A stretch of DNA of 64,000 nucleotides from Escherichia phage Eps7, in the sequence record NC_010583.1; one strand, written 5' to 3'. The notes beneath the pieces are model-generated. The model ran no database searches. It worked only from the letters and a program-made list of their open reading frames with translations, and was not told the origin of the DNA. Made by a program: the position numbers and the translations under genes. Shown here in pieces: positions 24,512-64,000 of the stretch. Position 1 is the first letter of the stretch. Each line of letters begins with the position of its first letter.

Positions 24512-24811
24512 TTACACCTTCCCCATATCCTTAAAGATATCGTAGAATGCTTTAGACTCCGGTGAGCGAACGTTGTCGATCAGTTCGATCATAGAGAAAG
24601 GAGAGTTTTCGTACTTCTCATAGACTTCCATAAGAAGTGCTAGACCTGAATCACCCTTGATGTCTTTCTGAGCTATATCCCCACAGATAATTAAACGACA
24701 ATCTTGTCCTACACGAGTCAGGAGACAGATCATTGCTTCAACGGAGATATTCTGAGCTTCATCGACAATTACATAGGAGTTGTTGAATGTTGCCACGCTT
24801 TCTTGAACCAT
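24512..24811 (-). CDS. PhoH-like ATPase C-terminal-domain protein (short form)
   Basis: Walker B-like YVIVDEAQN and ...IICGDIAQKDIKG...SGL; Walker A absent; start may lie at 24845 if the T6 tract at 24823-24828 is an overcall. Confidence 0.45.
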   Translation of the reverse strand: MVQESVATFNNSYVIVDEAQNISVEAMICLLTRVGQDCRLIICGDIAQKDIKGDSGLALLMEVYEKYENSPFSMIELIDNVRSPESKAFYDIFKDMGKV

Positions 24812-51987: not shown

Positions 51988-52018
51988 AACCCCAGTGGAC
52001 AATCCACTGGGGTTTTCT
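51988..52018 (+). terminator. intrinsic terminator ending the plus-strand replication cluster
   Basis: aaccccagtgga-caa-tccactggggtt then TTTCTCTTATTT. Confidence 0.6.
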
Positions 52019-52100
52019 CTTATTTAGTAAGGAGTTGTTTTACTAATTCCTTTATTTTATTAATCTTTTTTTTTTTGAAAGGGTGCAAAACGAACCTCTT

Positions 52101-52128
52101 GCATTTTGCATTTTGCATTTTGCGTTTT
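52101..52128. repeat. tandem heptamer repeat (GCATTTT) x4 in convergent intergenic region
   Basis: gcattttgcattttgcattttgcgtttt; preceded by a T11 run at 52066-52076. Confidence 0.6.
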
Positions 52129-52264
52129 CATATTGTACATAAGAACAGCCTAAGAATCAGCGAACTGTTAACATAGCAGAACACGCGTTGCGTTGCTAGG
52201 ATAATCAATGTTCAGGCTTGTTTCGCAGCAATATTTTTCAGTGACAGATTGCACTCCACTTATA

Positions 52265-55215
52265 TTATGGTAGTTCTGTAATTGTTGGAGCATTTCCGTT
52301 AAGCATTGATTTTACAAGGTTTTTCAGTTCATATAACTCATTGCGTAATACGTTAATTTCCTCCTGTTGATTATCAATCTTTGCTTTTTGCTCTTTGAAT
52401 GCGTTAACAAGAAGTGCGACAACACCATTATAGTTAATGCCTTTGATTGCCTCGCCTTTTGGGTCTAGCTGACCATCGTTATTCAAAGAATGAACCGCTT
52501 CCGGCAAAACCCTTTCAACATCTTGTGCGATCAATCCAGCCTCAATACTATAAACGCTGTTTTCATCTTCAATTAGATTGTTGCGCTTGTAGTAAGTATA
52601 ACCAGTTAGATAATCAATTTTGTCGGATGCCGTTTCGATCTCTTTTAGATGTGCTTTTAATCTAATGTCAGACCTGCTAACCCAATTTGATGCGCTACCA
52701 TTTCCAGCACTATCAAAAATAAAGTCAGCGCCCTTAACATAAAGATGTGTTTCAGCGCCGCCAGAAGTCCACGGAACAACATCCATGCCAGCTATCCAAT
52801 CTTTCCCCAATAAACAGATTTAAATATGGCAACCGCAGAATCAAATCCAATGTGCTCAACAAGCAATCCAGACGCACGACTACGCCAGTCGGCAAATGAA
52901 CCACCCTCAACTTGACCAGCAATAAGAGCGTTTGGATCACCGCGCCTAACTCCATTTACATACATACCCCTTGCGTTATCATCAACATAAGATGATATGA
53001 CCCTGTAAGTGTTTATTCCTGATGGAGTCCATGCAAATATTCTCGCTGAATCAGCAAACGCGCTTATGTGACCATCACGATCCCATTTAAGACCTGAATC
53101 ATGATCCCCAATTGCTATAGAGTAATCACCAAGAGCCGATTGAGCATCCGGACTTAATAACATCAATTGCCTATCAGATCTTGCTATCCTGTACCATCCA
53201 CCCCAAGAGCCAGCACTGCAAATGATACCCCATTTATTACCGTTCATTGCGGTTGCAACAATATTTCCATACTCAACATGACCGTTTGCATTTTTACCGT
53301 GAACATGCAATTCATACATCCACCAACCAGAGGCTTCAGGTGGTTGATATGTAACAAGTTCTCCGCTTGAGTAATAACCGCTTTCTGCGTATGTTGACAT
53401 AAACCCAAGAATGTTTGAATTATTAGGAATAATAATTGCTTGACCACCAACAGGAGTATTTAAGTTCTTTCTTGCTCCAACTTCAGTATTAGATCCAGTG
53501 CCGCCAGCATCAATTGAAAGAGGAATCCATCTTCCAGTTTCATCAGTCCAAACACCCCACGCCGCATCAGGTCTAATTGTGATTCGATAAGGTGAGTTAC
53601 TCCCTGGTGCATACATCATAGTTTCTGTTTCTGTTTGCTTTAAACGATCAATGCCAAAGTTTATTTTTGCGCCCTCAACGTTTTCAGCACCAGTACCGCC
53701 AGCACCAATAGAAAGCGCAGATGTGCTGTTATTGTCATTACGCGCAACGCGCCATTCCCCATTGTTAGCGATCCGTAATTCATAAGTCCATGCAGGATTA
53801 CGAAAAGAATTATAAGCGCCAGCATATTGATCTTTTACAGAATTAACAGCCTCAACTTTTAGCGCCTCCCTTGCAAGGTCTTTGTTTGCAAGATCATTAA
53901 GGTTCTGATCCTTCTTTAACGACGCTTGCATAACCTGTTCTGCTGATGCAGCCGCTGTCTCCGCTCTATCTGCTGCACTGGTGGCATTAGTAGCTTTCTC
54001 TCCTGCTATTGTAGCGCTACCAGCGGCCTCCAGGGCCTTGTCTGTTGCTGTCGTTGCAGCAGTAGTGGCGGTATTTTTAAATACCTCTGCTTCGTCTCTG
54101 TAGCCTTTGGTTGTGGTCATCGCTTGCGTAGCTGTATTCGCACTACCTGATGCACTTTGCTGAGCTAGCTTAGCAGCGTCTTCACTAGCTTTTGAGTTAA
54201 TTTCACTAGTCTTTGTATTAGTTTCTGAGTTTTTTGCTGCTAATGCTGATGTGGAGGCTTGTGCAGCGAATGCTTCTGCTTCATCCCTGAATCCTTTGGA
54301 GTCAGAAGCAGAGGCAGCGGAATCAGCAGCATTAGTCTCACTAGTTTTTGCTGCTGCTGCATATGCTGCTGCATTAGTCTCACTAGTTTTTGCATTAGTC
54401 TCACTAGTTTTTGCATTAATCTCACTAGTTTTTGCTGCAGCTGATGATTCTATAGCAGTAGTTTCACTAATTTTTGCTGCAGCTGATGATTCTGCAGCTT
54501 TAGTAGCGGATGCAGCAGATTGAGAAGCAGAAATAGCAGACTGAGAAGCAGAAGCTTCAGAAGCTTCAGCAGAAATAGCAGATTCATTCTCAGAATTCTT
54601 AGCATTAAGTTCTGAAGTCTTAGCAGCTATCTCGGAGTCTTTTGCAGTAGTAGCGTATTCTCCCGCCTCTGTAGCAGAACCAGCAGCAGCAATAGCCTGA
54701 TTGGTAGACTCAGTAGCAGATGTAGCAGCATTTTGCTCAGAAGTAGCAGCAGCAGTCTTAGCAGCCTCAGCGTCCTTCTTAGCTTGTTCAGCTAATAGAC
54801 GACTCTGTTCAGCATTTTGTGCAGCAAGTTCAGCAGAATCACGGAATCCTTTGGATTCCTCAGCTGACGTAGCAGAGGCATCAGCACTATCTTTAGATAA
54901 ACCAGCTTGTCTCTCCGCTTCAGTAGCAGAAGCAGCAGATTGAGTTGCAGAAGTTTCTGAAGAGTTAGCGTAAATTGCAGCTAGGTTCTCCGAGTCCTTA
55001 GCATTTGTTTCAGATTCTTTTGCTGCAATTTCAGAATCTTTTGCTGCCGCAGCAGAAGCAGCAGAGGCCTCAACAGCCCCTGTTAGTTCACTAGCAGTAA
55101 TAGAACTAATAGAAGTACCTAAAACTACCGTATACTTAGGATATTTACTAGCAGTAGTTGTAGTGTCATCTATGTTCAGAATCTGCTGTACAATAATTTT
55201 AGTTTTAAGTGCCAT
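52265..55215 (-). CDS. ltf: L-shaped tail fibre protein with C-terminal intramolecular chaperone (peptidase S74-like) domain; frameshift at C4 tract 52805-52808
   Basis: N-terminal repetitive AK.SE.NAK.SE fibre shaft, central beta-rich region, C-terminal chaperone motifs (SDIRLKAHLKEI...DYLTGYTYYKRN...SIEAGLIAQDVERVLPEAV); two ORFs join across the tract. Confidence 0.7.
54371..54500. repeat. in-frame tandem DNA repeats inside tail-fibre gene
   Basis: 21-nt unit gcattagtctcactagttttt x3 (54371-54433), then tgctgcagctgatgattct x2; encodes repeated TSETNAK-type peptide units. Confidence 0.7.
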
Positions 55216-55637
55216 TATTGAGTTACTCCATCGCTGATGTATACTTTACCTTCCATAATACGGAAAGAATTGACTTCAGAGCCAATTACATCACGAGTCA
55301 TTAGGATATCATAATAACCAGCAAAACGTTGTCTTGGGTTATACTTATCACGTTCTTTAGATGCTTTTTCACCAATATTAGTAGTGTCTGCAATGGAAAG
55401 ACTAATTGCAGCAGCACCTTGAGCAGCATCAATAACATGAGTTTTAAAATTAGCTAGAACCTCGGCGTTCTCATCTAAACTAGATTTAATAGTTCCTCTG
55501 AGTGAATACCCTGTCAAGTTAACAGGAAATTCTGTTGGCGGATATACGCTATCATCAACATCCATAAATTGCATGATAAGACTATAAGGCACTTTCTCAT
55601 CAACAACAATATCAATAACTCGGTTTTCTGTACTCAT
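55215..55637 (-). CDS. tail collar protein (T5 p132-like, 140 aa)
   Basis: Size and position (between pb4-like and tail-fibre genes) match T5 p132; beta-rich sequence. Confidence 0.5.
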
Positions 55638-55642
55638 TATAA

Positions 55643-57701
55643 TTACCTTATATGGATATACCCACTATTTAGGTCTATCTTCATCTTGTAGTATGCTTCA
55701 GGGTTTCCTGATAACGCAGCATTTCTATCGTAGATTATATTAACACCTATTTGTGATAAGAAGGCATTTCCTGCCACAATCTTATCAGCAGTTACAGTTC
55801 CATTAACAATCATGTTGCCATGAAGAACCATTGCAGGGTTAATCCATCCAGCCCCGTTCCATTGACGGGTAAATGCTGTTTGTGGAGCATTACTGTTAAA
55901 TTGTGTTAGAACATCGTATTTAACCGGAGGTTTTCCAAAGTTATTTTGAAAGAATGCGTTAGCTTGTCCATCATCCCAACCGCCTAATCCAGGAATACCC
56001 ATGGAGTACATCCCAGGACCACGCTGTCCATCATGTCCTATAGTACCTTCAGTACCACTCCATTGAACTACATCAGACCAGCTAGTACCTTCAAGAAGTT
56101 TGTTAGTAACTGGATCAAGTGTACCTGTAGTCGCATAGATATTTTGTGTCATATCTGTACGATTAGGTGGAGTTTTTGACCAACCAGGAGGTGGATAATC
56201 TTGTTCTAACGGTTTGGCCGGTAAAGATGTTGCTAACTTATAAACAAATACTGTTTGCTTACCTTGTAAACCAGTTCCAATATCTACGTCACCATTTGGT
56301 GTTCCAATTACTACACCACTAGAAATACGCAGAGTAGTACCATCATAACGTATCCATTGTGTAGCATTACCAATGTCTAACTTAGCTTTGGCAGAGGTAT
56401 TATCCATACCCATCCAAATACCAGAGTTATTATCTCCCCAAGATTTACCTTGAGTATAAATTGCTGGATTATCTTTACCAGATAAGTTAGTCATGATAAA
56501 GTTCGCAGCATTAATATCTCTAGTAATTACTTTACCATCGACGTTAACAACACGATTTATAGGGTCGAAAGAAATAGGTGCTTTTCCTTCTTCATCTAGC
56601 AGACCAATGTTAATAGCACCAGTAGCTGCATCAATTAAGAATGTCTGTCTCCAGATTTCTCCATCTTTCATACTACCCTTAATAAAGGCATAGTTAACAT
56701 CAATACCAGTCTCATTGACAAAACTATTATCTAGAGGAGTATCTTCATTCAATATAAATGTTACAGGAGCTGATTCTGTTATATCTTGCTTATTTGGTCC
56801 CCAGGCAATTGATGAAACCTTAAAGGTATGTTCAACTTTCCATGGGAATGATATAATCGTTGCAGCTCTAGCAGCACCCACGTTTATCTTTTGAGCTTTA
56901 GCCCATCCGGTTTTAGCGTATTCCTCGGAGTTTATATAAGTAACCAAGAACTCACGAACGTTAGCACCAGCACCACGTTCCCATTCCCACTCAATTCTAA
57001 CATCATATCGTTCTTTACCATCAGCAATTCGTGCAGCTTTAAAAACAATATCGATAGGTGCAGTAGGTGGAACAAAGTTATAAGCTACAGTTAGAATATT
57101 AGGAAACTCGTAGTATCCTGAAGAATCAACTGTAACACCATCAGGCATAGTTACTTGACCAGATATTCTGATCTTATAGTCTCCGATAGGAACTCCACCA
57201 AATTTAATAGTAGAACCTAAAGCCCCAATATAATATTTAGTCCAAGGACTGTCTTCAGTGGCTGTACTTTTTAACTCAATAGTACAGTAACTTGCTTCAC
57301 CAGTTGTTTCCACAACAACTATCGGTGCGCCCACCCCAACATCCACAGGTTCTGACTCAGATCTTGCTGCGACAATTATTGGCTTCTCTTTTGTTTTAAA
57401 GTTAGTTTCATTAGAGAGGTTAATACCAATTTTTGCATTTAAAAGTTCTGAGTCAATAATCGAGTCATAAAAAAGCTCCCTGAACCTGATAGGTAGTTGA
57501 GGGAGTTAAATTATTGATCATAACAAAGAAAGTGTCGATTCCAGTGAAATCTCTTCTATCCACTTCTTCGCCAAGTTTAAGCCAGAATGATCTACCGATA
57601 ACATCGTAGTCGGTATAGATAGAATGCTGGATATACGCCATCGTATACCCAGTCATAATACTATTTAAGACCATCTTGGCTGGTGCATTATTCGAAATCA
57701 T
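55643..57701 (-). CDS. pb4: baseplate/central fibre protein pb4-like (frameshifted at A6 tract 57469-57474)
   Basis: Combined length about 685 aa (T5 pb4 is about 688); 78-aa and 567-aa ORFs join when the T6 run on the coding strand is read as T5. Confidence 0.65.
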
Positions 57702-61269: not shown

Positions 61270-64000
61270 TTAAGAATTACCAAGTGATTTCAGGGTGGTT
61301 CCATTCTCATTAAGAGCCTGTTCCACGGCATCCCTGAAAGCAGCACTGTTACTCGAAGCAAAGTCTCGGAAGCTAGCCGCATCCATCGTACTGATGTTCA
61401 GCACAATAGGCCTACCCGATGTACCCTTTGAAGATCCTTTGAGTTCATCAGTAGGAGTAGCCTTCATCGGAACCATAGGAGTGATTACTTCGGTACCATG
61501 CTCACCCATCTGGTAACTAACTCCAGGGTACATATTACCACCTTCTGCACGAGGTACGAAAGAGTTCGCATTACCAATCCCTTGATCTCCTCGAATATAA
61601 GAAAGTTCTCCTGCGTTAGCCGACATAGAAACGTCTACGTTCTTCTGGCGCTCTCCAAGAGACAAGTATTGAGCTGTCTCAGTACCCGAGTCTCCAATAG
61701 AAGACATACCAGATGCAGAGGATGCTTGTGCAAGAGACAATGCACCTGCAACACCTGCTGCAATCATAAGAGGGATAGACCACGGGTAAGGAACAGCTGT
61801 TGCTGCTTGCATCACCGCTACTGCCGTCTGAATTATGATCTGCTTCTTAGCTGCGTCTTGCTGGATCTTAACCTTTTCCGCTTCCAGTTTCTTGAGCTTA
61901 GCTTTAGATGCTTCGGATTTACCGTCACGTTTTTGCTCTGCTGCAATAGCCTGGTCAATAGCTGATACTTGATTACTTACTCCCATAGCAATCATTGAAG
62001 AAACCATCTGCATACCTGCCGCCACAGTGCTAACAGTATCTAAAGATCCCTGAGAGAACTGCATCATGGCATTAGTAAGATTTCCCATACTCTGGCCAAC
62101 TTCCGTTGCTTGGCTATTTAATGCTCCAAGTTTAGAAATAGCTTCGTCGTAAGAGGCCATCTGGTTCTGCATATCAGCATACTTCTTATCATCCCCAGAT
62201 AAACCAGTCGTAGGAGTATAAGTAGCTCCAACAGAAGAACCTACCTGTTGCTGCATCTGAGCATTACGTTGTGCTGTTAAAGCCGACATCTGAGCCCTTG
62301 TCTTGGCTATTTCAGCATTCCAGCGCATTTGCTCGTTAGCATTACCTTTGGTAAGTTCTTTCATCTTGGTATAAAAATCTAACTGCATTTCCATTTTTTT
62401 GCATTTCCCCTGCCAGAGGGAACATGGAAGTTAGAGTATTTTCAAAGGCTTCTTGCCTTTTACTGGTCATTTCAGCTTGCTGGTCTTGGCGGAATTTCCA
62501 GATTTCACGCCCTATCTGTGCTTGAGCACGTCTTGATTGTTCAGCTTCTTTCTGCTTATCAGCTTGTTTTGTATACCATTCGTACTTCTCTTTTTCAATA
62601 GTCAATTCAAGATTTAACTGTGCTAGACGATACTGAGTATCTGTCATAGTACGGTTATTTAAGAGAGCTATTTCACGATCAACACCAAGAATCTTATCCG
62701 TATAGTCCTTAACTTTCTTCTGAGCTTCCATGTCCTGGTTAGTAATTTTGATACGTTCTAACTGAACCTTAGCTATTTCATTCTCAATTGCCTTGTTACC
62801 TTTGTTAGTTTCTAGGACACGCTTAAGAGCTGCTTCCTGTTCTTCTAACTGTTGGATTTCTAGACGTCTACCCGCTTCCTGTGCTTTCTCTTTATCCTTG
62901 GTCTGGTTGTACACTTCGGCAATCTTTTGCTGAACTTCTAGCTGATTTTTAGTCTCATTACTAGTTAATTTTACATAACCAGCAAGAGCTTGTGAGGCAG
63001 TCTTCATCTCACTAAGAGTATTATACCCTAAGTTCAGACTCTTAACATACTCATCAGCATTTTTACCAGTGCCGGCAGATAGAGACTCAATAGTCTTAAT
63101 CGTATCCGATAGGGATGCACTAGTTTTAGCCGCAGTATTAGTATTTTCGGCAATGTTCTGGATATCGTTAGCTAAATCACTAGCAGTTTTCTTAGCCTGA
63201 TCATATGCTTTCTGCTGTTCCGTCAGTCCTTTCAGAGTTGCGGAGTTAAAGTCATAAACCGCATCAGGGTCATTCATATCCTTCTGCAGATTAATCTGCT
63301 TCTGAAATTCTGGATTAGTCTTAGCAGCCGCAGCACCAGCAGCTTGATACGCAGATTTCCAAGCATTAAGGTTTTCAGTAGAGTCATCAACTTCTTTACC
63401 TAACCTTGCTACCTGTAGTCCCATAGCTGCGGTTTCTTCTACAAACTTTTTGTTAGCTTCGGAAGAACCTATGCGCACTCCCCCTACTTCAAATCCCCCA
63501 GCAGCTAATCCAACAGGCATTCCCTCACCCACTAATCTAATAGCGGCAGCAGTACTAGCATCTGCTTGGGACATACGTTTATCAAACTCAGTCTTTAGTT
63601 TATTACGCTTATCCAGAGACTCTTTATACATATCAAGAGCTTTATTATATCCTTCCTCGGAAGCGGAAAGACTTAAAGCTACAGCACCAACGTTAGTTGG
63701 GTCAATCTGACGGTTAGTTTCTTCTTGTGCTCTAGCAGCAGAAGCCGAGATAGATGCTTGAGAAGTATAGAATACTGCGTTAATAGAATCAATTACCGGC
63801 CCTAAATACTTAGCAGCAGCCTGTTGAACCTTTCTTAGTGCAGCATCAGCGTTAGCAGCAAACTGTTCCCATGGAGTTGCACGGAGTACGTCATCCAAGT
63901 AGCCGAAACGTTTAGTAGATTCAGCAATTACTGCGTTAGCATATGCTTGTTGCTTTTGGAAAGTGGAAAGACTATTGACGTTATATGTGATACCTGTGTT
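61270..64000 (-). CDS. pb2: tail tape measure protein (T5 pb2-like), N-terminus beyond window; frameshift at T7 tract 62364-62370
   Basis: Ala/Gln-rich coiled-coil, frame open to window edge; ORFs 62342-63898 and 61270-62394 join if the A7 run is read as A6 (...AGEMQKMEMQLDF...). Confidence 0.75.

What the first reader, a model, noticed from the sequence alone, without database searches (positions are those of the whole stretch)
52265..55215. L-shaped tail fibre is shorter than T5's and carries in-frame tandem DNA repeats plus a self-cleaving chaperone domain
The reconstructed tail fibre is about 983 aa, whereas I recall T5 pb1 as about 1396 aa, although neighbouring tail genes match T5 lengths (pb3 949 aa, pb9 204 aa, p132 140 aa). 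That points to a host-range module swap. The shaft region contains perfect 21-nt tandem repeats (54371-54433) encoding TSETNAK-type units, prone to expansion or contraction. The C-terminus has the S74 intramolecular chaperone signature.
Basis: partly seen in the sequence, partly recalled or inferred. Interest (0 to 1): 0.45.

Follow-up and report, generated by a model that had tools for sequence, protein, structure and literature searches.

The report
Frameshifted side tail fibre gene, phage EPS7

Summary
The window is phage EPS7 (Epseptimavirus): the 807-aa ORF product is exactly GenBank ACB97589.1. The region 52265-55215 (minus strand) is the ltf gene, 99.2-99.8% identical to more than 30 deposited phage records, where it encodes 983 aa. 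Here it is 2951 nt, not 2952. One G is missing from a G5 run (52805-52808), which splits it into an 807-aa ORF and a -1-frame ORF carrying the S74 chaperone.

All 54 matching phage records keep the extra base. The same window has frame breaks in at least 10 other conserved genes, including tape measure pb2 and pb4, so a sequencing error is the leading reading (about 55%). A real knockout cannot be excluded. An unrelated Salmonella Derby read set carries a different 1-nt deletion in the same 9-mer, and a third assembly breaks exactly there.

- T5 pb1 is 1396 aa.
- Only the N-terminal ~210 aa are homologous to T5.
- The distal half is shared with ~50-kb T1-like phages.
- The 21-nt repeats are real (3 copies, one mismatch).
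- Repeat number does vary among relatives in 7-aa steps.
- Pfam S74 is significant.

All of this is already described for T5-like phages.

The parts
52792..55215 (-). ltf 5' ORF, 807 aa: N-terminal collar-binding region, helical heptad shaft and most of the distal receptor-binding module. It ends prematurely at TAG 52794-52792.
   Evidence: ORF list and translation. The product is exactly ACB97589.1 / YP_001837069.1, 'tail fiber protein [Escherichia phage Eps7]'. Residues 1-205 match PDB 8hqz chain d, an L-shaped tail fibre, at E 8e-64.
52265..52810 (-). ltf 3' part in the -1 frame (181 codons). It holds the last ~44 residues of the mature fibre plus the S74 intramolecular chaperone. An ATG at 52786-52784 lies 5 nt after the upstream stop.
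   Evidence: tblastn of the BSP22A and PSa2 Ltf proteins switches frame here. In the Derby assemblies the gene caller annotated the same piece as a separate 173-aa S74 protein.
52801..52808 (-). Frameshift site GGGGAAAG (GGGGGAAAG in all relatives). In the 0 frame it reads G_GGA_AAG (52807-52801), a canonical -1 slippery heptamer.
   Evidence: Alignment to four relatives shows one G missing. All 54 matching phage records span 72 nt (one truncated hit 70 for 69) against the window's 71. The sequence was read directly.
52490..52672 (-). Peptidase_S74 (endosialidase-chaperone) domain. The predicted cleavage Ser849 codon TCT is at 52672-52670, in the motif S-D-I-R-L-K.
   Evidence: Pfam PF13884, E 1.6e-10. 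S849, D850 and K854 are invariant in 54 homologues. It aligns to PDB 6f45_A residues 92-202.
54371..54433 (-). Three tandem 21-nt units encoding KTSEINA, KTSETNA and KTSETNA. There is one T/C mismatch, in the first unit.
54329..54349 (-). Fourth copy of the 21-nt unit, separated from the tandem block by a 21-nt Ala-rich spacer.
53917..55095 (-). Ala/Ser-rich heptad-periodic shaft (residues about 41-433), predicted to be alpha-helical. It holds degenerate 21/42-nt periodic DNA, and all the length polymorphism among relatives maps here.
   Evidence: TRF rows with periods 21 and 42. Repeat families D1-D7. AF2 secondary structure is helix over 41-433, at low confidence. Indels in relatives fall here.
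52303..53914 (-). Distal module (residues about 434-971, read across the frameshift), shared almost unchanged with fibres of ~50-kb T1-like phages.
   Evidence: BLASTP against Citrobacter phage Brooksby, where near-identity starts at KDQNLNDLANKDL. Hits of 754-813 aa on ~50-kb contigs.
55215..55637 (-). p132/LtfC collar protein (140 aa), to which the fibre N-terminus attaches.
   Evidence: 100% identical to the BSP22A and PSa2 proteins. Pfam PF23926 LtfC is recorded on the homologous gene of the Derby contig.

Best explanation
The region is the ltf (L-shaped or lateral tail fibre, pb1/LtfA-type) gene of Salmonella/Escherichia phage EPS7, and it carries the standard 983-aa allele of a large Epseptimavirus clade.

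**How the fibre works.** This is inferred from homology and from the T5 literature.
1. The N-terminal ~200 residues dock a trimer onto the p132/LtfC collar.
2. A ~390-residue Ala/Ser-rich heptad region (KTSETNA-type units) forms a helical shaft. Its length drifts by slippage or recombination between the 21-nt DNA units.
3. A beta-rich distal module binds a surface glycan, probably O-antigen. That binding speeds reversible adsorption but is dispensable.
4. The C-terminal S74 intramolecular chaperone (residues 849-983) drives trimer folding and then cuts itself off at Ser849.

**The frameshift.** In this particular sequence one G of a G5 run is missing at 52805-52808. The fibre ORF therefore stops at codon 807 and the chaperone falls out of frame. 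I think the most likely cause is a base-calling or assembly error in an error-rich 2008 record. In that case the real phage makes the normal 983-aa fibre.
For: **Identity**
- The 807-aa product exactly matches the EPS7 protein.
- The region is 99.2-99.8% identical at DNA level to the 32 best-matching records (about 20 distinct phages), whose ltf CDS is 2952 nt where inspected.

**Architecture**
- Homology to T5 pb1 is confined to residues 1-211.
- PDB 8hqz_d matches the N-terminus, and 6f45_A matches the distal tip and chaperone.
- Pfam S74 is above its threshold. Ser, Asp and Lys are invariant.
- Heptad indels occur in relatives.

**Error reading**
- None of the 54 matching phage records has the G4 allele.
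- Proteins of two relatives (BSP22A, PSa2) switch frame in the window in the metallopeptidase (15161), DHFR (19709), NrdA (three times: 22578, 23804, 23848), ligase B (37672) and pb4 (57469, A6 against A5). PhoH is split by an internal deletion, and two small ORFs are also broken.
- Tape measure pb2 switches frame at ~62399 (T7), shown by tblastn against BSP22A and as an indel against both relatives.
- pb2 and pb4 are essential tail parts, so a viable phage cannot carry all of these breaks. Several sit in homopolymers like the ltf one.
Against: - The same 9-mer is genuinely polymorphic elsewhere. Two independent assemblies of SRR3182272 / GCA_008843455.1 (Salmonella Derby) give GGGGGAAG, where an A is lost rather than a G. 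They show the same 807-aa plus 173-aa split, with intact pb4, pb3 and pb9.
- The 112.8-kb contig of GCA_019385035.1 is broken exactly around this site. Each end stops 21 nt short of the base where the wild-type and A-deleted alleles diverge.
- The fibre is dispensable in T5 (Saigo 1978 and Heller & Braun 1982, as cited in PMC12617516), so a true knockout would be viable.
- The two EPS7-unique substitutions in ltf (52724, 52268) both lie downstream of the break. That would fit relaxed selection.
- No reads are available to settle the question.
Confidence: 0.55

Rival explanations
1. The missing G is a real mutation. The sequenced EPS7 stock is a side-fibre knockout, as laboratory lambda PaPa is for stf. 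It arose by polymerase slippage in the only G/C run of 5 or more in the gene, and was tolerated or selected during propagation because the fibre is non-essential.
For: - There are independent natural frameshifts in the same GGGGGAAAG tract: the Derby phage, and an assembly break in a third sample.
- G5 at CDS position 2408 is the only G/C run of 5 or more among 13 runs of that length.
- The precedents are the lambda PaPa stf frameshift and T5 LTF dispensability (PMC12617516).
- EPS7-unique substitutions cluster downstream of the break.
Against: - The record carries at least 12 other frame breaks, including some in essential genes, so its indels are not trustworthy.
- All 54 matching phage records keep G5.
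- My rough estimate gives about equal odds for error and real mutation. Nothing here separates them decisively.
Confidence: 0.3
2. The tract acts as a leaky or reversible switch. The G-deleted allele creates an in-frame G_GGA_AAG heptamer, the same slippery sequence as lambda G/GT. A few per cent of ribosomes slipping -1 would then make a full-length fibre identical to wild type (...YWGK|DWIAG...). Gain and loss of one base in the G5A3 tract would toggle fibre expression in the population.
For: - The heptamer is in the correct 0-frame register and the downstream ORF is in the -1 frame.
- The predicted slip product equals the relatives' protein.
- Two different 1-nt deletions occur in the same 9-mer, and a third sample apparently holds a mixture of wild-type and A-deleted alleles.
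Against: - The arrangement is not conserved: 54 of 54 phage records, and about 46 of 48 proteins carrying the motif, are in frame.
- No downstream RNA structure stands out from shuffled sequence (z -0.31).
- The Derby allele G_GGG_AAG is not a canonical slippery site.
- There are only two or three samples, and two of them are the same phage lineage.
- Slippage efficiency is inferred from lambda, not measured.
Confidence: 0.1
3. The gene is short relative to T5 because tandem repeats collapsed during assembly.
For: - Repeats exist, and one relative's assembly does break inside them: P0044, a 687-aa partial protein starting just after the repeat block at about residue 297.
Against: - More than 30 independently deposited records give the same 2952-nt gene.
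- The 413-aa difference from T5 lies in non-homologous distal sequence, not in repeat copies.
- Repeat variation among relatives amounts to only -28 to +33 aa.
Confidence: 0.01

Closest known systems
Ltf of Epseptimavirus phages (BSP22A, Seafire, 3-29, S116, SuperGirl/Bas29 and others), 983 aa
   Same: - The DNA is 99.2-99.8% identical.
- The flanking genes are the same: pb4, p132, ltf, then a terminator and dUTPase on the other strand.
- Once the missing G is restored, the protein differs by 1-2 residues.
   Different: In the window one G of the G5 run is missing, so the ORF is split into 807 aa plus 181 codons. E831D is unique to EPS7 among the close alleles.
Phage T5 pb1 (Ltf, 1396 aa, binds polymannose O-antigen)
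   Same: - The genomic position is the same.
- The N-terminal ~210 aa are 53% identical, including the AKTSETNA heptad units.
- Both have a C-terminal S-D-x-R-L-K S74 autocleaving chaperone.
- The role is a dispensable adsorption accelerator.
   Different: - It is 413 aa shorter.
- Beyond residue ~366, BLASTP finds no similarity.
- The solved T5 pb1 tip structures did not appear in the PDB sequence search at E of 0.01 or better.
- The receptor is therefore expected to differ.
DT57C-type LtfA (PDB 8hqz chain d, 1076 aa; I assign it to DT57C from memory)
   Same: Residues 1-205 are nearly identical (E 8e-64). Both carry an S74 C-terminus (PMC4728585).
   Different: DT57C has a second fibre protein, LtfB, branching from LtfA. 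EPS7 has a single ltf gene (PMC4728585). The distal parts are unrelated.
Tail fibres of ~50-kb T1-like (Drexlerviridae-type) Citrobacter and Salmonella phages, e.g. vB_CfrD_Brooksby (754 aa)
   Same: The distal module, from KDQNLNDLANKDL (residue 434) to about 971, is almost identical. That includes the GGGGGAAAG tract at DNA level.
   Different: The N-terminal attachment and shaft are unrelated, and the virion family is different.
Salmonella phage S16 gp37 distal tip (PDB 6f45 chain A)
   Same: The motif ALG..SIAIGD.D.GL.W (residues 692-736) and the S74 chaperone (848-971) align, at E 2.6e-19.
   Different: S16 is a T4-like myovirus whose gp37 tip carries a separate gp38 adhesin. I did not see a gp38-like gene next to ltf here.
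Lambda PaPa stf frameshift (Hendrix & Duda 1992)
   Same: A frameshift splits a dispensable side-fibre gene into two ORFs in a widely used stock (PMC12617516).
   Different: In lambda the mutation is experimentally established as real. Here it may be a sequencing error.

Membership tests
T5-like L-shaped tail fibre (pb1/LtfA) | N-terminal region homologous to pb1/LtfA | tested here: met
   BLASTP to T5 pb1 over residues 1-211: 53% identity, E 1.7e-30. phmmer to PDB 8hqz_d over residues 1-205: E 8e-64.
T5-like L-shaped tail fibre (pb1/LtfA) | Gene sits immediately downstream of the collar gene p132/LtfC in the pb3-pb4-p132-ltf block | tested here: met
   ORF order in the window matches the T5, BSP22A, Seafire and PSa2 annotations.
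T5-like L-shaped tail fibre (pb1/LtfA) | One uninterrupted ORF from the N-terminal anchor to the C-terminal chaperone | tested here: not met
   The span is 2951 nt. The frame switches at 52801-52808, with a stop at 52794-52792. This feature is met in every relative examined.
T5-like L-shaped tail fibre (pb1/LtfA) | Forms three L-shaped fibres on the collar and accelerates adsorption through O-antigen | not testable with these tools
   This needs electron microscopy and adsorption assays. It is known for T5 only.
Peptidase_S74 intramolecular chaperone (endosialidase CTD type) | Profile match above the curated threshold | tested here: met
   PF13884: 41.5 bits against a cut-off of 22, E 1.6e-10, covering the full 58-position profile.
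Peptidase_S74 intramolecular chaperone (endosialidase CTD type) | Cleavage-site Ser and catalytic Lys in the motif S-D-x-R-x-K | tested here: met
   S849-D-I-R-L-K854. S849, D850 and K854 are invariant across 54 homologues.
Peptidase_S74 intramolecular chaperone (endosialidase CTD type) | Covalently joined (in cis) to the fibre it folds | tested here: not met
   In the window as written the domain is in the -1 frame, after a stop codon. It is joined in all relatives.
Peptidase_S74 intramolecular chaperone (endosialidase CTD type) | Autoproteolytic release after trimerisation | not testable with these tools
   This needs protein chemistry or virion proteomics.
Programmed -1 ribosomal frameshift | X_XXY_YYZ heptamer in the 0-frame register, with the downstream ORF in the -1 frame | tested here: met
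   G_GGA_AAG at 52807-52801. ORF2 is in the -1 frame.
Programmed -1 ribosomal frameshift | The two-ORF arrangement is conserved in relatives | tested here: not met
   54 of 54 phage records have the in-frame G5 allele. About 46 of 48 proteins with the motif read through.
Programmed -1 ribosomal frameshift | Downstream stimulatory RNA structure | tested here: not met
   The 93-nt fold gives -22.1 kcal/mol against a shuffle mean of -21.2, z -0.31. From memory, lambda G/GT also lacks a stimulatory structure, so this feature is weak evidence either way.

The most novel reading that the evidence does not exclude
The GGGGGAAAG tract near the 3' end of this ltf allele may be a recurrent one-base indel hot spot that switches side-fibre production off, and perhaps on again, in natural Epseptimavirus populations. 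The G-deleted form would stay leaky through lambda-G/GT-like -1 slippage at the newly created G_GGA_AAG. That would amount to a phase-variation-like control of a host-range organelle in a virulent phage. Three observations support it: EPS7 (G deleted), the Salmonella Derby-associated phage (A deleted), and a third assembly that breaks symmetrically 21 nt either side of the tract.
Probability: 0.12. Interest if true: 0.55.

Novelty: already known. Interest (0 to 1): 0.2.

Why it matters
For the finding as written, little is at stake. The allele, its modular relation to T5, the heptad repeats and the S74 chaperone are all documented for T5-like phages.

The practical value is a correction. Anyone using the EPS7 record should know three things:
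- Its ltf, pb4, pb2, nrdA and other genes carry frame breaks.
- The '807-aa tail fiber protein' in the databases is a truncated product.
- The record cannot be used to infer that EPS7 lacks side fibres.

The one thread worth a small follow-up is that the same 9-nt tract is independently frameshifted in short-read data from Salmonella isolates. That hints at real fibre-off variants in carrier cultures.

Tried and rejected
- **Assembly collapse of repeats.** Rejected, because lengths are concordant in dozens of genomes.
- **Source record.** I looked for EPS7 in the phage collection. NC_010583 is not held. I identified the source by exact protein look-up instead.
- **EPS7 genome paper.** PMC9021807 is not held, so the sequencing method remains unknown.
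- **Pattern scans for the three alleles of the tract.** The viral contigs gave one hit, on a contig whose length (111,607 bp) equals that of phage SH9; I did not inspect which allele it carries. The metagenome and GTDB genome contigs gave nothing.
- **Structure prediction.** The full-length relative P0010 as a monomer gave a poor model (pLDDT 55.9, pTM 0.27). I ran no fold search on it and take only the secondary-structure trend from it.
- **RNA structure downstream of the slippery heptamer.** It is not better than shuffled sequence.
- **KKP_3822 and GRNsp8 'S74 fragments'.** KKP_3822 ltf is shattered into several ORFs at other positions. That is uninformative for the tract and probably reflects record quality. 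I did not inspect GRNsp8.
Full report
**1. What is at the coordinates.**
- On the minus strand, the ORF list shows 52792-55215 (807 aa, ATG start) and 52265-52810 (181 codons), not one 983-codon frame.
- The span 52265-55215 is 2951 nt.
- The upstream ORF ends ...FKSVYWGKIG-TAG. The downstream frame continues ...GKDWIAGMDVVPWTSGG....

**2. Source and relatives.**
- The 807-aa product is exactly ACB97589.1 / YP_001837069.1, 'tail fiber protein [Escherichia phage Eps7]', on a 111,382-bp contig. The window is therefore phage EPS7. Its record is not in the phage collection I could search.
- Megablast of 52000-55700 finds 418 phage records. The 32 best records (H1-H32, about 20 distinct phages, since many appear as both GenBank and RefSeq entries) are 99.2-99.8% identical over the whole query: BSP22A, Seafire, 3-29, S116, SuperGirl and others, all Demerecviridae, genus Epseptimavirus.
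- In each relative I inspected, the ltf CDS is 2952 nt, i.e. 983 aa.
- Base-by-base alignment shows 4-10 differences per relative. One is common to all of them: a G present in the relatives and absent in the window, within TTATTGGGGG-AAAG.
- A 71-nt probe across the site hits 54 records. All the full-length hits span 72 nt (the one truncated hit spans 70 nt for 69 query bases), so none shares the G4 allele.

**3. Is the missing G real?**

*Evidence for an error.*
- I translated the annotated proteins of BSP22A and PSa2 and searched them against the window. Apart from ltf, frame switches appear at these places:
  - metallopeptidase, 15161 (T6 against T5)
  - DHFR, 19709 (T6 against T5)
  - NrdA, three times (22578, 23804, 23848)
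  - ligase subunit B, 37672
  - two small ORFs
  - pb4, 57469 (A6 against A5)
  - tape measure pb2, ~62399 (T7); the tblastn frame switch is against BSP22A, and the indel is seen against both relatives
- PhoH also lacks about 400 nt internally.
- A viable phage cannot carry broken pb2 and pb4, so the record contains many indel errors. The ltf indel is of the same kind.

*Evidence for a real mutation.*
- The protein cluster of the 807-aa product contains a second 807-aa protein, from Salmonella Derby whole-genome data.
- Two independent assemblies of that sample (Logan SRR3182272 and NCBI GCA_008843455.1) agree base for base over ltf. They show 807-aa plus 173-aa ORFs, with pb9, pb3 and p132 at full length in both and pb4 called at its full 685 aa in the NCBI assembly.
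- Their tract is GGGGGAAG. An A is lost rather than a G, so this is a different event within the same 9-mer.
- A third sample (GCA_019385035.1) has a 112,805-nt phage contig whose two ends lie inside ltf. It lacks 40-41 nt centred on the tract. Each end stops exactly 21 nt before the base at which the wild-type and A-deleted alleles diverge. That is what a k=21 graph fork at a mixed site would give.
- The G5 run is the only G/C run of 5 or more in the gene.
- T5 side fibres are dispensable, and lambda PaPa carries an accepted frameshift in stf (PMC12617516).

*Weighing the two.* I estimate roughly 55% record error, 30% real knockout, and 10% for the more elaborate switch reading.

**4. A curiosity of the G-deleted allele.**
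- In the 0 frame the window reads TGG GGA AAG ATT GGA TAG. That contains G_GGA_AAG, which from memory is the slippery heptamer of lambda G/GT. The downstream ORF is in the -1 frame.
- A -1 slip there would give ...YWGK-DWIAG..., identical to the wild-type protein.
- There is no notable downstream RNA structure (z -0.31), and the arrangement is not conserved.
- I therefore treat this as a by-product of deleting one G from GGGGGAAAG, not as a programmed signal.

**5.

*Length against T5.*
- T5 ltf is 81865-86055, i.e. 1396 aa.
- BLASTP aligns only residues 1-211 of the frame-corrected protein with T5 (53% identity), plus repeat-on-repeat matches up to about residue 366. Nothing aligns beyond that.
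- T5 itself carries AKTSETNA units, so the heptad motif is ancestral to the family.

*Module exchange.*
- Residues 1-205 are nearly identical to a 1076-aa L-shaped fibre in PDB 8hqz. Residues 692-736 and 848-971 align to the S16 gp37 tip, 6f45_A.
- From residue 434 (KDQNLNDLANKDL) to about 971 the protein is almost identical to the 754-aa fibre of the 50-kb Citrobacter phage Brooksby. Many proteins of 754-813 aa on ~50-kb contigs share this module at roughly 73-82% identity over the aligned part.
- This is clear evidence of module exchange between T5-like and T1-like phages. It is a known theme (PMC4728585, PMC8594841).

*Repeats.*
- 54433-54371 holds three 21-nt units, aaaaactagtgagaTtaatgc and then two copies of aaaaactagtgagaCtaatgc. 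A fourth copy lies at 54349-54329.
- These are embedded in a degenerate region of 21/42-nt periodicity.
- Relatives differ here. Compared with the 983-aa form, proteins of 976, 990, 966, 961, 955 and 1016 aa have changes of -7, +7, -14, -21, -28 and about +33 aa, all within residues about 247-290. Wa28 lacks 112 aa (16 heptads).

*Chaperone.*
- Pfam PF13884 matches residues 849-909 at E 1.6e-10.
- S849, D850 and K854 are invariant in 54 homologues.

*Structure.*
- A monomer AF2 model of the near-identical Seafire protein was poor (pLDDT 55.9).
- It supports only a long helical shaft (residues 41-433) followed by a beta-rich distal part.

**6. Verdict.** This is an ordinary, already described tail-fibre allele in a deposited genome. 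The only thing particular to this window is the one-base frame break, which is most simply one of many errors in the record. The recurrence of one-base deletions in the same tract in short-read data from Salmonella cultures is the single observation that might repay a cheap follow-up.

Noticed in passing
window 57469 (pb4, 55643-57701, minus strand): The central straight-fibre gene pb4 is also frame-broken. It has A6 (plus strand) where BSP22A and PSa2 have A5, giving a 78-aa and a 567-aa ORF instead of 685 aa.
   Followed up: yes
window ~62396-62409 (pb2 tape measure, minus strand): The tape measure gene switches frame at a T7 run that is TTTTC-T in PSa2. An essential gene is broken, which argues that the record has indel errors.
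   Followed up: partly
window 15161, 19709, 22578, 23804, 23848, 37672, ~3837, ~6495: Frame switches relative to both BSP22A and PSa2 proteins occur in the metallopeptidase, DHFR, NrdA (three breaks), ligase subunit B and two small ORFs. Some sit in homopolymers and some do not.
   Followed up: partly
window ~24789-24797 (phoH-like gene): About 400 nt, corresponding to residues ~20-158 of the 250-aa PhoH-like protein of the relatives, are absent from the window. This is either a deletion or a misassembly.
   Followed up: no
window 52066-52128 (intergenic, downstream of ltf): The T-run is variable: one T more than BSP22A and four fewer than PSa2. There is also a 7-nt tandem repeat, TTGCATT x4.3, with one unit more than PSa2. 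Both lie in the bidirectional terminator region between ltf and the dUTPase-side genes.
   Followed up: no
window 52724, and L012 CDS position 2487: Each of the two frameshifted alleles carries its own unique non-synonymous change, in adjacent codons about 25 codons downstream of the break: EPS7 E831D and the Derby phage A830T. Every other allele examined has A830; E831 holds in all but the divergent P0034, which also has D831. This could be coincidence, relaxed selection, or local low sequence quality.
   Followed up: partly
L013 and L016 (GCA_019385035.1 contig ABBNMR010000014.1, both ends): A 112.8-kb T5-like phage contig in a Salmonella isolate assembly is cut exactly around the GGGGGAAAG tract. 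Each end is 21 nt from the position where the wild-type and A-deleted alleles diverge, which suggests a mixed population in that culture.
   Followed up: partly
L007 / L008 (T5 RefSeq NC_005859, 86055-86479): The T5 reference record itself annotates the collar protein p132 as two overlapping CDSs, T5.135 (264 nt) and T5.136 (186 nt), where relatives have one 140-aa gene. This looks like another frame problem in an early T5-like record.
   Followed up: no
L015 (Salmonella phage KKP_3822, OQ674104.1, 33701-36636): The ltf gene of this phage is annotated as three separate CDSs with gaps between them. The breaks are at positions other than the G5A3 tract.
   Followed up: partly
one search hit list (P0020, P0033, P0034, P0044, P0072, P0093 and others): Many near-complete T5-like phage contigs of ~105-113 kb occur inside Salmonella enterica isolate assemblies. 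One fibre allele is seen on 34 contigs. This suggests frequent carrier-state or contaminating T5-like phages in sequenced Salmonella cultures.
   Followed up: no
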